Assembly (NCBI GenBank): GCA_012813795.1
Contig: GCA_012813795.1_4087.1
Reading direction: 5' to 3' (one strand)
From: a phage
DNA: 64,000 bases
Below, piece after piece: positions 12,663-19,114 of this stretch. The notes beneath the pieces are model-generated. The model worked only from the letters and a program-made list of their open reading frames with translations, did not search any database and had not been told where the DNA came from. The position numbers and the translations under genes are program-made. The first letter of the stretch is position 1. Every line of letters starts with the position of its first letter.

Positions 12663-13586
12663 TTACATAAAGTAATTGCGAATCACATATTCTAATGTTT
12701 TATCTTGGTGCTGCACTGCAACGGAATAAATTAGATTTTTAAATCCATCAATAGCAGCTTTCGATTCTTCTTCACCAAAATTCTTACTGATACTTTCGAA
12801 CATATCTTGTGCACGTTCAGAACTAACAACACTGTCAACGAATGCTGAAATTTCAGCACGCAACTGACGATCAAGCATATCACCAATCAGAATATCATCT
12901 GACTGTGAATCATCGTCGGTTTGTGCTGTGGTATCAGAATATCCAAAGATATCTTCAGATAGACCAAATTTCTTTTTAGCACCAGTAAATGCGGATTTCA
13001 CTTTAGATTTTACATCTTCTTTTTTGGAAGGTTGTTCTTGGGATTCAGGTTCTTCAGTTTCATATTCTTTTGTGAACATATGAGACAGCACTTGGTCAAG
13101 ATTATTAATCATACCATTTAACTTAGATTCTGCTGCGGCCCCCACGACTTTAAATGCTTCTTCATAAAGCTTATCTTCAGCCTTAGATTTTGCAGTACTA
13201 ACAGTTTCAGTGATTTTATCAGTACAATTTTTAAGAAGTTCAACAATTTCAGAAGATTTGCCATTTAGGATCTTATTGACCAACATATCCAACCCATCAG
13301 TTGGTTTGGATTTGTTTACTGGTTCACCATTTAATACCATTGCTAGTTCTTTTAGTGCAGCGTTAGATTCAAGACTAGAATCGAATTCTACCGATAACGT
13401 TGCCCCATTTGTCAACTCAATGACGAGATTATTGATAGACACATAAGAATGAGAATAAAGATCTTTATTGAATGATACAGTTTTGAATACGATAATGTTT
13501 GACATTTGAACTCCATTAATTCCCAGACGCGGGAAAGTTTTTAAACATATAGTGACATTGTACCAGATTTTCGAAAGTAAGTCCAA
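12663..13586 (-). CDS. hypothetical acidic protein (start probably at internal Met)
   Basis: 307-aa ORF; first ~27 codons overlap 13516..13905. Confidence 0.5.
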   Translation of the reverse strand: MDLLSKIWYNVTICLKTFPRLGINGVQMSNIIVFKTVSFNKDLYSHSYVSINNLVIELTNGATLSVEFDSSLESNAALKELAMVLNGEPVNKSKPTDGLDMLVNKILNGKSSEIVELLKNCTDKITETVSTAKSKAEDKLYEEAFKVVGAAAESKLNGMINNLDQVLSHMFTKEYETEEPESQEQPSKKEDVKSKVKSAFTGAKKKFGLSEDIFGYSDTTAQTDDDSQSDDILIGDMLDRQLRAEISAFVDSVVSSERAQDMFESISKNFGEEESKAAIDGFKNLIYSVAVQHQDKTLEYVIRNYFM

Positions 13587-13905
13587 AATCTAGAGTAACC
13601 ATCAGAGTTTGATATAAGTAATGACCAATCTCATTAGTTTCCGCATCTTTAAGATAGATTCCGAATTCAGTACAGCAAAATTGAACAACTTCATTATAAT
13701 CGATAAATTGTGATATTACAAGTACTTGGTCATATGAATTTGCATCAAAGCGAACCATGAACATTTCATTTGTTACAGGGTGGATAATAATACCACCCCT
13801 TGATATGACCTTTTCGTAATTATCACTCAAAAAATTAATTGTTGAGCTTAAATCCATATTATGCCTCGTTATAGAGTTTTCGTCCCGTGAGATGCTCATC
13901 TGCAC
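13516..13905 (-). CDS. divergent EE-x-FQ family member
   Basis: C-terminal HYLYQTLMVTLDFGLTFENLVQ resembles FFQYCLVNNTLGLTFEDISAIL of 18689..19114. Confidence 0.5.
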   Translation of the reverse strand: MQMSISRDENSITRHNMDLSSTINFLSDNYEKVISRGGIIIHPVTNEMFMVRFDANSYDQVLVISQFIDYNEVVQFCCTEFGIYLKDAETNEIGHYLYQTLMVTLDFGLTFENLVQCHYMFKNFPASGN

Positions 13906-14071
13906 AGAACTTCATTAAAAATGCTTTTTGTGAAAATCTCTGAAGCATTGAAACAGTTTCTTTTTTCATGTAAGCAATCTTATTGTCTACATCTAGCATT
14001 ATATCATGCTTTACGTTTAATTCCTGAATTGTTTTGTAAATTTCAAAATTTCGTTCTTTCATAGCCACCAA
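13859..14071 (-). CDS. hypothetical protein
   Basis: 70-aa ORF. Confidence 0.45.
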   Translation of the reverse strand: MVAMKERNFEIYKTIQELNVKHDIMLDVDNKIAYMKKETVSMLQRFSQKAFLMKFCADEHLTGRKLYNEA

Positions 14072-14372
14072 GATCCTCTAGTTCCCAAACAAGTTCTTTT
14101 GCTTCATCAATGTTATGGATGATTTGATAATGTCCAGAACTTGATGTTAGACGACTACCGTTTTGAGTAATGCAATAACCCCATGTTTTTGACTCATTAT
14201 GCATATCTCTCTGAAGTTTATATGGAGATTGTGGTTTCTTTTCTGCTATGTTTTCAGTATATAGGTCTTTTTCAATTTCCATACCACGAATGTGTGCATT
14301 CTTTTCAATACAACGGCAGATGATTATAGTAGCACAACATATTACAGTGATAATTATAGCATACATTTTCAA
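14043..14372 (-). CDS. hypothetical protein, N-terminal TM
   Basis: 109-aa ORF. Confidence 0.5.
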   Translation of the reverse strand: MKMYAIIITVICCATIIICRCIEKNAHIRGMEIEKDLYTENIAEKKPQSPYKLQRDMHNESKTWGYCITQNGSRLTSSSGHYQIIHNIDEAKELVWELEDLGGYERTKF

Positions 14373-14797
14373 TAACCTCTACTCTTACTAGTATGTTCAT
14401 TTATTGCATCTACCAGGTCATAACCCTGATAGTTAATACCATCAATTATAACTTTGTACTTATTACGTACCTTTGTGCCATCAGTTTTGGTCCAAATTGT
14501 GTTGTCTGGTGTAATAGATACAGTGTGATTTAAAATGAAATCAAACATCTGTTCCTTTGATAGTACTGTGACATTTTCAGTAATCATATCTACATTGATA
14601 CATTCACGAGTATGCTCAACACCTTCAAAAATGGCAACACCTTCGGTTTCTTTCAGTTTCTGTGCTTGAGCTTTAGCCGTTCCCATATCATCGGCATGAA
14701 CTGTTTCTGTACTGTATTCTACATTTAGTACGTTACCAGTATCTACGTCTTTCCATGTGTCACGAAAATGAACTTTAATCTTTGCTGTATTAGACAC
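14369..14797 (-). CDS. hypothetical protein
   Basis: 142-aa ORF. Confidence 0.55.
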   Translation of the reverse strand: MSNTAKIKVHFRDTWKDVDTGNVLNVEYSTETVHADDMGTAKAQAQKLKETEGVAIFEGVEHTRECINVDMITENVTVLSKEQMFDFILNHTVSITPDNTIWTKTDGTKVRNKYKVIIDGINYQGYDLVDAINEHTSKSRGY

Positions 14798-15254
14798 GAC
14801 CGCTTACCTCATTTTCTTTCAATTTAGAACATACATAGAGAATAGCACCCAATTCGTCACGTGTCAAGTCCTGTAGGTCATATGCCACCTGCATCTGAAA
14901 GTAACTTTCATCACTAAGGTCAGTGAATTGGTCAACATTTTCTACATGCACAAAGAAGTTTTTGGGATCATCATTGTAATGTGAATTATAAGGTCTTATT
15001 GAAAACCCATGACTGTATATATCCAATACGAATTTAGCATTTAAATAGCCCTCTAAATCAAGAGATGCAAGAATCGAATTGGATCTTTCAAAAATGTCCA
15101 TGAAATTATTACGATAAGATCTTGCACAAATCAGTACATCACCGAGTTGGATATCAACTTTCTGTCCAGTCTTGGATTCAGCTAACCCAATGATGTACTC
15201 CATAAACCCAGGAAAATATTTCCTGGATTTAATATCTTTCAGTACTGGACGCAT
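14790..15254 (-). CDS. EE-x-FQ family paralog
   Basis: C-terminal SDESYFQMQVAYDLQDLTRDELGAIL. Confidence 0.6.
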   Translation of the reverse strand: MRPVLKDIKSRKYFPGFMEYIIGLAESKTGQKVDIQLGDVLICARSYRNNFMDIFERSNSILASLDLEGYLNAKFVLDIYSHGFSIRPYNSHYNDDPKNFFVHVENVDQFTDLSDESYFQMQVAYDLQDLTRDELGAILYVCSKLKENEVSGRV

Positions 15255-17590: not shown

Positions 17591-17850
17591 TGAAAGTCAA
17601 TACCAAAATCAAAAGTAATAACCTAGAGGGAGGGTAGTTATTACTCGTTTAGTGACATATATAATGATAAACAGGAGGTAAAAAACATTATACATGTTAT
17701 ATCTCTCCAGAACTACAATGATAGGTACTGGACCTGGAGAGAATGGAAAGACAAACCACTCACAGTACCATTTTACGACAAAATATGTGATAGCTTCTGA
17801 AAGAAAAAGGAGGATTCAGTACTGCTCCAGAAGCTATCGGTATAACATTT

Positions 17851-18129
17851 TCAGTACTGAATGTTTAGTTTAGGATGAGTATGTCCATCTTCGATTTGTT
17901 TTAGAATCGAGTCACGAATTTCTACTGCCCCTTGATAACTATATTTATCTCGTGGGATCACCCATGTATATTCACCATCAGTGGTTTTAAAATCAATACA
18001 CGGGTTATCTTTATATTCAGATGCAACCATTGCAATTACATGAATAGAATTCAAAGAATGATTAGAATACGGATAATTATCTTTGAACTTAAAGGTCTTG
18101 AGTTCTTCAGGAGCTACAATGAATTCCAT
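17851..18129 (-). CDS. hypothetical protein
   Basis: 92-aa ORF. Confidence 0.5.
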   Translation of the reverse strand: MEFIVAPEELKTFKFKDNYPYSNHSLNSIHVIAMVASEYKDNPCIDFKTTDGEYTWVIPRDKYSYQGAVEIRDSILKQIEDGHTHPKLNIQY

Positions 18130-18344
18130 TATTCATCCTCGTACTTCTTAAATGGTGGTACTGTTACATTGAAGTCTTTGCACATTTTAGTGGAACGAAC
18201 TTCAGTGTTGTTGTGGTAATTCTTCTTAAATTCATAAGAAACAAAATTACGAATACCTGGTGTATGAATAATTGCAAGAACAAAGGTACGACCAAAAAGA
18301 CATAACAAATTCCAGAACATATTAATCTCCAAATTAGTAGGCAT
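18129..18344 (-). CDS. small membrane protein
   Basis: 71-aa ORF, hydrophobic core. Confidence 0.4.
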   Translation of the reverse strand: MPTNLEINMFWNLLCLFGRTFVLAIIHTPGIRNFVSYEFKKNYHNNTEVRSTKMCKDFNVTVPPFKKYEDE

Positions 18345-18696
18345 TAATCAAACGTGATACATCTAGTATAGCGTTAATCTCTTCTAATGTCAAGTCACCA
18401 ATGTCATTTATCATTGAGTACTGAAACAGTGATTCTTCAGTGTAATTGCATTCTGGTACAGCGATAAGGATAGGCTGCTTGGATACGTCCAAAGTTATTT
18501 TAGCCATTGTGCTATATATATCAAATTGATATAATTGATTTTTGGAAGTATATGATATGTATATATTATTTGATTCAGATGGATGTACCAAGGTAAAACC
18601 ATCGTAACATAATAGTTTAATGTTCGGATCGTCAAAATTGCCTGTATAAAGGTTCTTTCGAACATCTTGTATTATACGTACTATTAGACTAGTCAT
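18334..18696 (-). CDS. EE-x-FQ family paralog
   Basis: TEESLFQYSMINDIGDLTLEEINAIL. Confidence 0.6.
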   Translation of the reverse strand: MTSLIVRIIQDVRKNLYTGNFDDPNIKLLCYDGFTLVHPSESNNIYISYTSKNQLYQFDIYSTMAKITLDVSKQPILIAVPECNYTEESLFQYSMINDIGDLTLEEINAILDVSRLINAY

Positions 18697-19114
18697 TTAA
18701 TGGATTTATTACCTCTACTGGAATCAACTTTTGAACTTTAAGGATAGCACTAATGTCCTCAAATGTTAATCCTAATGTGTTGTTAACGAGGCAGTACTGG
18801 AAGAATTTTTCTTCAGTATTTACATCGTCAACATTCAATTCAATTGATTTATCATCTCCATCTTCAACATCAAACTCAAAATCATAAATTCTGAATATCA
18901 CACGTTCAAAATACACATCAATTGAATAAAAATATTTACCCAATGTATAACCCATGAAAATATTAAAACATGTATTTAAATCTGTTGTTTCATGTAAATT
19001 TGTGTCAAAACAAAAAACTCGCACTTCACCAATATTATCTATATAATCATCTTTGAGTGACCATGCGTTGTTTTTTAATACATAGTTTACCATTTCAACG
19101 ATGTTGTATTTCAT
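18689..19114 (-). CDS. EE-x-FQ family paralog
   Basis: TEEKFFQYCLVNNTLGLTFEDISAIL. Confidence 0.6.
   Translation of the reverse strand: MKYNIVEMVNYVLKNNAWSLKDDYIDNIGEVRVFCFDTNLHETTDLNTCFNIFMGYTLGKYFYSIDVYFERVIFRIYDFEFDVEDGDDKSIELNVDDVNTEEKFFQYCLVNNTLGLTFEDISAILKVQKLIPVEVINPLND

What the first reader, a model, noticed from the sequence alone, without database searches (positions are those of the whole stretch)
13516..19114. Tandem array of a ~20-member small-protein family with a conserved C-terminal EE-x-[YF]FQ-x-S...D-L-T-x-EE-L motif
At least 10 ORFs in 13.5-19.1 kb share the same ~35-residue C-terminal block, e.g. TEEEYFQDS, SEEEYFQES, TEESLFQYSMINDIGDLTLEEINAIL, TEEKFFQYCLVNNTLGLTFEDISAIL, LTEEQYFQIQTLHDIHDLTYEEIRDLI. 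Further members sit at 173..679, 23571..24074, 30429..30884, 31236..31712 and 35051..39156. N-terminal halves are divergent, suggesting a common C-terminal interaction or processing module on diversified heads. The motif superficially resembles an E-x-x-Y-x-Q|S protease site (TEV-like), which raises the speculative option of a shared cleavage signal. I know of no named family with this signature.
Basis: seen in the sequence. Interest (0 to 1): 0.78.

Follow-up and report, generated by a model that had tools for sequence, protein, structure and literature searches.

The report
Giant unnamed early-protein family in jumbo phage
The repeated motif is real and marks a previously unnamed family of small acidic proteins that a 350-kb E. 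coli jumbo phage carries in about 60 very divergent copies, probably an early-expressed toolkit for dealing with the host; it is not a protease cleavage signal.

Summary
The window is 98% identical to Escherichia phage A4 (Asteriusvirus, a RaK2/121Q-like jumbo myovirus). The motif [ST]-E-E-x-[YF]-F-Q-x-S-[LT]-[VIL]-x-D is real and far above chance. The window has 18 solid members, all on the minus strand, plus 2-3 degenerate ones. The flagged 13.5-19.1 kb stretch holds 7 solid members and 1 degenerate one, not 10 or more.

The family is much larger than reported. A whole-genome census of the relative phAPEC6 finds 58-64 members, about 8% of the genome and 11% of its genes. The syntenic RaK2 region holds 12.

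AlphaFold with a 144-sequence alignment gives one compact domain (pLDDT 93): helix, five-strand beta meander, two helices. The motif is the middle helix, so it is not an appended tail or an exposed linker. No Pfam, NCBIfam, PADLOC or PDB relative was found. PHROGs splits the family over many "unknown function" groups.

The genes lie in a region dense with consensus sigma-70 promoters. None appears in the published virion proteome. They evolve 2-3 times faster than their neighbours but under purifying selection, and they differ by presence or absence between 98%-identical phages.

Best reading: an old, tandemly expanded scaffold family of early cytoplasmic host-interaction proteins. The function is inferred, not shown.

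The parts
173..679 (-). family member (168 aa; motif TEEGVFQSS)
   Evidence: HMM iteration; A2-HMM E 6e-11; equals A4_195
13516..13905 (-). degenerate or borderline member; the motif has decayed to GHYLYQTLMVTLDFGLTFENL. The A4 annotation starts it at Met17 (about 13857).
   Evidence: E 0.014 with the window HMM; not recovered by the A2-HMM at E<1e-3; sequence; phrog_26435
14790..15254 (-). family member (154 aa; SDESYFQMQ)
15791..16258 (-). family member (155 aa; TEEQYFQIQ)
   Evidence: low-confidence AF2 model with the same a-b-a-a order
16240..16659 (-). family member (139 aa; TEEEYFQDS); overlaps the next gene by 4 nt
   Evidence: phrog_24027
16656..17129 (-). family member (157 aa; SEEEYFQES)
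17126..17590 (-). family member with a variant motif (QEEMYEQLC). The likely true start is at 17521 (131 aa), as annotated in A4_157.
   Evidence: A4 annotation; phrog_35192
18334..18696 (-). family member (120 aa; TEESLFQYS); this is the protein modelled
   Evidence: AF2 pLDDT 93.2; leave-one-out E 9e-12; phrog_17453 E 6e-44
18689..19114 (-). family member (141 aa; TEEKFFQYC); first gene of the array, downstream of tRNA-Thr
   Evidence: phrog_17453 E 4e-54
19497..19524 (-). perfect sigma-70 consensus promoter (TTGACA-16-TATAAT) upstream of tRNA-Thr and the 13.5-19.1 kb array
23571..24074 (-). family member (167 aa; DEDAHFQES)
   Evidence: A2-HMM E 1.7e-6; equals A4_144
30429..30884 (-). family member (LEEMYFQQL). 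The likely start is at 30872 (147 aa).
   Evidence: 94% identical to its phAPEC6 orthologue
31236..31712 (-). family member with a weakened motif ([10 protein letters not shown])
   Evidence: leave-one-out E 1e-3
35051..35473 (-). family member (TEEELFQLS)
35470..35910 (-). family member (TEEGYFQES)
35907..36287 (-). family member (TEEELFQLS)
36678..37103 (-). family member (SEEEFFMVS)
37093..37527 (-). family member (SEEILFQRS)
37545..37940 (-). family member (DEEHYFQQL)
38719..39156 (-). family member (PEEEFFQQS), with orthologues in RaK2 and K64-1 (48%), Erwinia phage Hallingskeid (32%) and Salmonella phage Munch (27%)
   Evidence: phrog_23322 E 3e-66
41866..42414 (-). borderline candidate (HEYAFQHSV near the C-terminus)
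   Evidence: E 0.023 with the window HMM only; sequence

Best explanation
The ORFs belong to one old, tandemly expanded family of small (about 120-170 aa), acidic, soluble, single-domain proteins. The family is specific to RaK2/121Q-like jumbo phages.

Shown by the analyses here:
- The fold is predicted as helix a1, a five-strand antiparallel beta meander, then helices a2 and a3.
- The motif T-E-E-x-[YF]-F-Q-x-S-[LT]-[VIL]-x-D is helix a2 itself. Thr is at the N-cap position, and F91, L/T95 and V/I96 lie on the conserved face.
- The 'LT-x-EE' part of the motif is the N-cap of a3.
- The genes sit in operon-like arrays in a region packed with consensus sigma-70 promoters.
- None of the products was detected in the published virion proteome of the relative phAPEC6.
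- Individual copies are gained or lost between near-identical phages, and their proteins diverge 2-3 times faster than their neighbours while staying under purifying selection.

Inferred:
- They are made early by host RNA polymerase and act in the cytoplasm.
- The helix core is a conserved scaffold. It probably carries a shared acidic/polar site formed by E87, E88, Q92, S94 and D98.
- The sequence-variable sheet and loops give each paralogue its own target.
- Together the copies would form a repertoire of host-interaction proteins (host takeover, anti-defence or host range), comparable to the multigene families of large eukaryotic DNA viruses.
For: Family and motif statistics.

Fold: AF2 pLDDT 93.2, pTM 0.83, with the motif at H87-96. 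A shallower model of a second member has the same order of elements.

Acidic and soluble: median pI 4.7-4.9, and the window members have no transmembrane-like segment.

Promoters: the window has 31 near-consensus sigma-70 promoters on the coding strand, 1 on the other strand and 2.1 expected. phAPEC6 has 96 against 12, concentrated where the family lies.

Census and virion proteome: phAPEC6 has 58-64 members, all on one strand. None is among the 62 virion proteins of PMC7247149 Table 1, although the neighbours gp077 and gp078c are.

Evolution:
- Positional orthologues between the window and phAPEC6 have median identity 35% for the family against 71% for neighbours, p = 3e-4.
- dN/dS is 0.12-0.66, always below 1.
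- A4_139 and A4_148 are missing from the window phage.
- BLAST-detectable paralogue pairs are mostly neighbours, and none exceeds 58% identity.
- The syntenic RaK2 region has 12 members.
Against: No experiment or homology links any member to a host target or a defence system.

Early expression rests only on promoter consensus and neighbouring genes. The second, larger cluster in phAPEC6 (280-320 kb) has fewer such promoters.

A shared fold for the N-terminal halves rests on one confident AF2 model. By sequence, only 3 of the 18 window members are detected by an independent N-terminal HMM.

I could not read the model coordinates. Whether E87, E88, Q92, S94 and D98 form an exposed site or an internal hydrogen-bond network was judged only from helical periodicity.

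Absence from a 62-protein virion proteome is weak negative evidence.
Confidence: 0.5

Rival explanations
1. Hub-adaptor family. The invariant acidic/polar site on helix a2 docks every paralogue onto one common partner. Candidates are the phage's own Clp ATPase/ClpP pair, host RNA polymerase or a host protease. The variable surface would recruit different targets, like F-box or PRANC proteins, or ClpS-type adaptors.
For: Five polar or acidic residues are 77-96% invariant across about 150 representatives that share less than 50% identity, while no basic partner residue is conserved within the protein. The relative phAPEC6 encodes a Clp ATPase (gp246c) and ClpP (gp353c).
Against: There is no evidence of interaction. 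The fold is one compact domain rather than a docking motif plus a binding domain. No ClpS-like or F-box-like structural match was found. On the helical wheel the conserved residues lie on the same face as F91 and L95, so they may be partly buried.
Confidence: 0.15
2. Shared ligand or metal site. The members are small binders or sponges, or weak enzymes, for a cation, nucleotide signal or other small molecule. The E-E-Q-S-D cluster would be the pocket.
For: The proteins are acidic and carry an invariant carboxylate/amide/hydroxyl cluster on one helix face.
Against: Sixty or more deeply diverged copies are hard to explain for a single ligand. No similarity to any known sponge, enzyme or EF-hand was found.
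Confidence: 0.1
3. Largely neutral or selfish expansion. The copies persist through duplication dynamics in a roomy jumbo genome, without distinct functions. The motif would be conserved only because the fold needs it.
For: Individual copies are dispensable between 98%-identical phages. One member (13516-13905) has a decayed motif.
Against: dN/dS is below 1 in every pair tested. No paralogue pair exceeds 58% identity, so the copies are old and retained. Arrays are syntenic between Asteriusvirus and RaK2. Ser is kept across two codon families.
Confidence: 0.1
4. One reading: E-x-x-[YF]-x-Q is a shared proteolytic processing signal (TEV/3C-like) that releases diversified N-terminal heads.
For: The family consensus E87-E88-x-[YF]90-F91-Q92 fits the textbook TEV site E-x-x-Y-x-Q (the TEV consensus is from general knowledge).
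Against: The motif is inside a confidently predicted, packed helix of a single domain. P1' is variable and Ser is at P2'. Conservation continues for 25 residues past the supposed cut. No 3C/NIa-like protease is annotated in the fully inspected relative.
Confidence: 0.03
5. Packaged internal proteins, like the T4 IP proteins, targeted to the prohead and trimmed by the T4-type prohead protease. About 40% of members have [LI]-T-E just before the second Glu.
For: A T4-type prohead protease is present (gp227c). Position 85 is L or I in about 42% of sequences. phAPEC6 has a capsid inner body (abstract of PMC7247149).
Against: None of the 64 phAPEC6 members is among the 62 virion proteins. The genes lie among sigma-70 early-type promoters, far from the head genes. 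The putative site is at the start of a folded helix.
Confidence: 0.03

Closest known systems
PHROGs groups phrog_17453, 35192, 24027, 23322, 30841, 26435 and others (all 'unknown function')
   Same: The window proteins are members of these groups, for example 18689-19114 against phrog_17453 with E 4e-54.
   Different: PHROGs splits one superfamily into many small groups and gives no name, motif or function. The unifying motif and the copy number are not recorded there.
Lineage-specific expansions in jumbo phages, such as the ~35-copy zinc-ribbon family of Bacillus phage G (Iyer et al. 2021, PMC7824862)
   Same: Many tandem copies of a small domain are confined to one jumbo-phage lineage, and function is guessed from context.
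   Different: The fold is unrelated (alpha/beta, not a zinc ribbon). The copy number is higher, at 58-64. The paper copies 'unprecedented' and its main text, as searched, does not describe such a family for the 121Q/RaK2 group.
Multigene families of large eukaryotic DNA viruses (ASFV MGF360/505, poxvirus ANK-PRANC and Bcl-2-like families); comparison from general knowledge
   Same: Tandem arrays of divergent paralogues with a conserved core, variable between strains, and expressed early. In those viruses they serve host range and immune evasion.
   Different: There is no sequence or structural relationship, and a role in host range is only an analogy here.
T4 internal proteins with a conserved capsid-targeting sequence; comparison from general knowledge
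   Same: A short conserved motif on otherwise hypervariable small proteins, and an anti-defence role (IPI*).
   Different: The T4 motif is an N-terminal cleaved peptide and the proteins are packaged. Here the motif is an internal helix and no member was found in virions.
TEV/NIa protease recognition site ENLYFQ|S
   Same: The string E-x-x-[YF]-x-Q matches.
   Different: The structural context is a helix in a folded domain, Ser is at P2', and no cognate protease was found.
p32/gC1qBP/MAM33 acidic proteins
   Same: An acidic protein with helix, antiparallel sheet and two C-terminal helices. Six of the weak top Foldseek hits belong to this family.
   Different: The scores are insignificant (E >= 0.17, TM <= 0.34). 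This is a lead only.

Membership tests
TEV/NIa-type protease substrate site | The site lies in an extended, accessible segment between folded units | tested here: not met
   The motif is helix a2 (residues 87-96) of a single domain with block pLDDT 93-96.
TEV/NIa-type protease substrate site | A small residue (S/G) immediately follows the scissile Gln (P1') | tested here: not met
   Position 93 is Q18/L17/Y15/E13 %. The conserved Ser (90%) is at position 94, which is P2'.
TEV/NIa-type protease substrate site | A cognate 3C/NIa-like cysteine protease is encoded by the virus | tested here: inconclusive
   The full annotation of phAPEC6 lists only a metallopeptidase (gp145c), a prohead protease (gp227c), a Clp ATPase (gp246c) and ClpP (gp353c). 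83% of its genes are unannotated, and I ran no profile search of the whole proteome.
T4-like packaged internal proteins | Present in the mature virion | tested here: not met
   None of the 64 phAPEC6 members is in the 62-protein virion proteome. The sensitivity of that study is limited.
T4-like packaged internal proteins | N-terminal capsid-targeting peptide removed at L/I-x-E | tested here: not met
   The conserved element is 30-50 residues from the C-terminus, and the N-termini are not conserved.
Any Pfam / NCBIfam / PADLOC family | Profile match above the curated threshold | tested here: not met
   There were no hits at E <= 1 (Pfam, 10 members) or E <= 0.1 (NCBIfam and PADLOC, 17 members), apart from single chance-level matches far below the curated cut-offs (Pfam Phage_Orf51 E 0.093 in one member; NCBIfam TlyA E 0.024 in one member). 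Ten longer relatives showed no informative fused domain.
PHROGs groups of unknown function | Profile match | tested here: met
   All 10 members tested match a PHROG, at E from 1e-6 to 3e-66 for 9 of them and E 7e-4 for 16656-17129. All the groups are 'unknown function'.
p32/MAM33 fold | Significant structural or profile similarity | tested here: not met
Polyimmunity-locus immunity proteins (SUKH and other Imm families) | SUKH-like fold or an Imm Pfam profile | tested here: not met

The most novel reading that the evidence does not exclude
The ~60 paralogues could be a virus-encoded repertoire of scaffold-based binders. All would share one docking site, the invariant E-E/Q/S/D face of helix a2, for a common hub such as the phage's own Clp ATPase/ClpP. 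Each would use its variable sheet surface to capture a different host defence or housekeeping protein for inhibition or degradation. That would be a bacteriophage counterpart of the poxvirus ANK-PRANC or F-box families, built on a fold with no solved relative.
Probability: 0.12. Interest if true: 0.9.

Novelty: new variant of a known kind. Interest (0 to 1): 0.62.

Why it matters
RaK2/121Q-like jumbo phages are being developed against E. coli, Klebsiella and Salmonella, yet more than 80% of their genes have no assigned function. One unrecognised family accounts for about 11% of the genes and 8% of the DNA of these phages.

It is larger than the phage G expansion that a comparative survey called unprecedented. 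It has a sharply defined motif and a confidently predicted fold with no solved relative.

Recognising it turns some 60 separate 'hypothetical proteins' per genome into a single testable question. It also gives a simple marker, EE-x-[YF]FQ-x-S, for tracking gain, loss and diversification of these genes against host range and host defence content.

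Tried and rejected
- Word-indexed homologue search with the 17-sequence alignment returned only 9 near-identical proteins, all 'hypothetical'.
- The search for related loci confirmed only 3 of 116 motif-bearing stretches in IMG/VR, because confirmation uses the first sequence only.
- tblastn with an HMM consensus fragment was too insensitive: 2 records.
- The afdb50 fold library was unavailable.
- The first AF2 run, with 17 sequences, gave a poor model (pLDDT 60.5). 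I used it only as a consistency check.
- The PDB profile search gave one chance hit, to a thiamin pyrophosphokinase segment ending in 'ELTEENYFQK'.
- Ten longer relatives (177-249 aa) were checked for informative fused domains and had none.
- The p32/MAM33 lead did not survive hhalign.
- Literature searches found no description of the family or its motif: the Asteriusvirus genome papers, the RaK2, CBB, phAPEC6, Sharanji and fEgEco12 papers, the jumbo-phage survey, and a full-text search for the motif strings. The RaK2 and CBB papers only note that paralogues exist.
- I considered that ORFs 6843-10205 might be distant members. They lack the motif and any HMM signal, and 8353-8778 and 8778-9233 are instead a pair of membrane-protein paralogues.

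Full report
**Origin of the window.** The flagged stretch is 98.4% identical over its whole length to Escherichia phage A4 (ON286972, 355.5 kb, genus Asteriusvirus), a RaK2/121Q-like jumbo myovirus. Other Asteriusvirus genomes match only the last quarter of it, at about 85%. Every ORF concerned is annotated 'hypothetical protein' in A4. With one exception (11470-12627), the genes in the window lie on the minus strand.

- A regular-expression scan finds the motif in 14 minus-strand ORFs.
- An iterated HMM converges on 17 ORFs.
- An HMM built from a deeper alignment that includes 127 database relatives adds 23571-24074, giving 18 solid members.
- In a leave-one-out test each of the 17 is re-found by the other 16, with E from 1e-3 to 1e-11 in a 259-ORF database. 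The signal lies in the last ~40 residues: for 16 of the 17 members that part alone gives E from 1e-4 to 1e-10 (31236-31712 gives only 0.08), while the N-terminal parts alone give E above 0.1.
- EE.[YFL]FQ occurs in 12 of 129 ORFs, against 0.03 expected after shuffling.
- At the invariant residues the codons differ synonymously, and Ser uses both TCA and AGY. Selection therefore acts on the protein, not on a DNA repeat.

The count inside 13516-19114 is 7 solid members plus one decayed member (13516-13905), not 'at least 10'. The six other ORFs there are unrelated. Borderline candidates elsewhere are 41866-42414 and 25779-26171.

**Size and spread of the family.**
- A profile search of 1.84 billion cluster representatives finds 174 proteins at E <= 1e-3. 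Almost all are 110-170 aa, and 128 of the 156 retrieved sequences (150 from this search plus 6) contain EE..[FY]Q.
- Ten distant representatives that were looked up come from metagenome assemblies; three sit on contigs of 250-362 kb and the rest on shorter ones. None carries an informative name.
- I fetched the whole genome of phAPEC6 (352.6 kb), a relative with a published virion proteome, and scanned it. The general HMM finds 58 members. A genome-specific iteration finds 64, all on one strand, covering 29.7 kb. That is 8.4% of the genome and about 11.6% of 551 genes.
- The members form a 30-71 kb cluster (syntenic with the window), a much larger 277-318 kb cluster, and a few outliers.
- The syntenic 20 kb of Klebsiella phage RaK2 has 12 members, with the same PTH2 gene embedded in the array.
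- One member has orthologues in RaK2 and K64-1 (48%), Erwinia phage Hallingskeid (32%) and Salmonella phage Munch (27%).
- The RaK2 paper remarks that about 10% of its gene products are paralogues, without naming families. A comparative survey calls a 35-copy zinc ribbon in phage G an unprecedented expansion.
- I found no paper that describes this family or its motif.

**What the protein looks like.**
- With 17 sequences AlphaFold gave a poor model (pLDDT 60.5).
- With 144 sequences the 120-aa member 18334-18696 folds with pLDDT 93.2 and pTM 0.83 into one compact domain. The elements are helix 4-15, strands 26-32, 44-51, 54-61, 64-69 and 76-79, helix 87-96 and helix 104-114.
- The motif is the second helix. 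T86 (T/S 89%) is at the N-cap position. E87 (96%), E88 (94%), [YF]90, F91 (98%), Q92 (94%), S94 (90%), [LT]95 and [VIL]96 follow, and D98 (D/N 92%) closes it. The 'L-T-x-E-E' part is the cap of the third helix.
- On a helical wheel the variable positions 89, 93 and 97 form the exposed stripe. The invariant polar residues share a face with F91 and L95. This is my inference; I could not read the coordinates.
- The N-terminal halves are extremely divergent but show matching strand-like hydrophobic periodicity. An N-terminal-only HMM built from independent relatives puts three window members at the top of its hit list.

**Comparison with known families.**
- Pfam, NCBIfam and PADLOC give nothing.
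- PHROGs scatters the members over many 'unknown function' groups.
- A PDB profile search gives nothing meaningful.
- Foldseek against the PDB has no hit below E 0.17.
- BFVD returns only uncharacterised proteins from the same phage group.
- The weak Foldseek list is headed by p32/MAM33-like acidic proteins with the same helix-sheet-helix-helix order, but hhalign gives probability 0.06. I treat this as a lead only.

**Context and expression.**
- The family is acidic (median pI 4.7-4.9), and the window members have no transmembrane-like segment.
- Neighbouring genes often overlap by 4 nt.
- The window has 31 matches of at least 11/12 to the sigma-70 consensus on the coding strand, 1 on the other strand and 2.1 +/- 1.2 in shuffles. 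A perfect site lies at 19524-19497, upstream of the array.
- phAPEC6 has 96 against 12, concentrated at 20-80 kb and 200-340 kb, where the family lies.
- Neighbours include sigma-factor-like genes, a tRNA cluster, DNA methylases and, in phAPEC6, a T7 gp0.7-like kinase.
- This is the signature of early genes read by host RNA polymerase, but that is an inference.
- None of the 64 phAPEC6 members is among its 62 virion proteins, although the adjacent gp077 and gp078c are.

**Evolution.**
- Gene order is conserved between the window phage and phAPEC6. Positional orthologues of family members have median identity 35%, against 71% for other genes (Mann-Whitney p = 3e-4).
- dN/dS is 0.12-0.66 for family pairs and 0.04-0.36 for neighbours. 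At comparable dS the family's dN is about three times higher, and no pair exceeds 1.
- Substitutions between orthologues cluster in the loops and strands before the motif, which itself stays unchanged.
- Between the window phage and A4 (98% identical), one member (A4_139) is precisely absent and another (A4_148) is replaced by unrelated sequence.
- Within phAPEC6 only 34 of 2016 pairs are BLAST-detectable and the maximum identity is 58%. Of the detectable pairs, 41% are within two positions of each other, against 6% expected.
- The picture is old tandem duplication, deep divergence, long retention and occasional loss. It is not a recent amplification.

**Mechanism.**
- What is shown: a single-domain scaffold family, soluble and acidic, lying among early-type promoters, not detected in virions, fast-evolving but constrained, and individually dispensable.
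- What I infer: an early cytoplasmic repertoire of host-interaction proteins. The central helix would provide the fold and probably a shared acidic/polar site, and the variable sheet and loops would provide specificity. This is the bacteriophage analogue of the host-range and immune-evasion multigene families of large eukaryotic DNA viruses. I give this 0.5.
- Rivals: a hub-adaptor family docking on one partner such as the phage Clp system (0.15); a shared ligand or metal site (0.1); a largely neutral expansion (0.1); the TEV-like cleavage signal (0.03); packaged, protease-trimmed internal proteins (0.03).
- The cleavage idea fails on structural context, on the P1' position and on the lack of an annotated 3C-like protease. 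Only mass spectrometry can close it.

**Verdict.** The modular and cleavage interpretation is not supported. The family is unnamed, has no structural or sequence relative outside its phage group, and is among the largest expansions reported in any phage. Its function remains unknown.

Noticed in passing
window 32273-34171 (-): A C5 cytosine DNA methylase is interrupted by an intein (Hint_2, LAGLIDADG_3 and Intein_splicing domains). The phAPEC6 orthologue is only 286 aa and aligns over 209 residues, so it appears to lack the intein.
   Followed up: partly
window 36281-36691 (-): A PTH2-type peptidyl-tRNA hydrolase gene sits inside the 35-39 kb family array. The same placement is seen in RaK2 (RaK2_00188), but the gene is absent from phAPEC6.
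   Followed up: partly
window 21124-21681 (-): A NUMOD4 + HNH_3 homing endonuclease lies next to tRNA-Ser (20972-21063). Phage A4 lacks this insertion.
   Followed up: partly
window 25144/25157 and 22061-22521; L001 30602-31078 and 27774-28127: Two family members present in A4 (A4_139 and A4_148) are missing from the window phage. One is a clean one-gene deletion and the other is replaced by unrelated sequence.
   Followed up: yes
window 1-54000, minus strand: There are 31 near-perfect sigma-70 promoters (at least 11/12 matches, 12 of them perfect) on the coding strand, against 1 on the other strand and about 2 expected by chance.
   Followed up: yes
window 11470-12627 (+) and 12663-13586 (-), hairpin 12628-12655: This is the only plus-strand gene of the region, and it converges on a minus-strand gene across a bidirectional terminator-like hairpin. 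Their phAPEC6 orthologues gp077 and gp078c are virion proteins, so a pair of structural genes sits in the middle of an early-type region.
   Followed up: partly
window 20972-21063 (-): ARAGORN calls a tRNA-Ser with anticodon ACT (A at the wobble position), which is unusual for bacteria and phages. Other tRNAs are Thr 19131-19204, Asn 20725-20799, Met 20890-20964 and Ser(TGA) 23171-23260.
   Followed up: no
window 8353-8778 and 8778-9233 (-): Two adjacent, very hydrophobic ORFs are related to each other by phmmer and are only 27-30% identical to their phAPEC6 counterparts. They look like a second, small, fast-evolving pair of membrane proteins.
   Followed up: no
phAPEC6 MK817115: gp246c (176.7-178.9 kb) and gp353c (263.7-264.4 kb); outside the window: The relative encodes both a Clp-type ATPase and a ClpP proteolytic subunit, that is, possibly its own ATP-dependent protease.
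   Followed up: no
window 45440-46567, 55957-57369, 57418-59382 (-): A TelA-like protein and the two subunits of a type II topoisomerase mark the end of the small-ORF region. No family members lie beyond about 42.4 kb in the window.
   Followed up: no
window 15254-15769 (-): This non-member ORF inside the array gets a marginal hit (E 0.015) from the N-terminal-only family HMM. It may be a member that has lost the motif.
   Followed up: no
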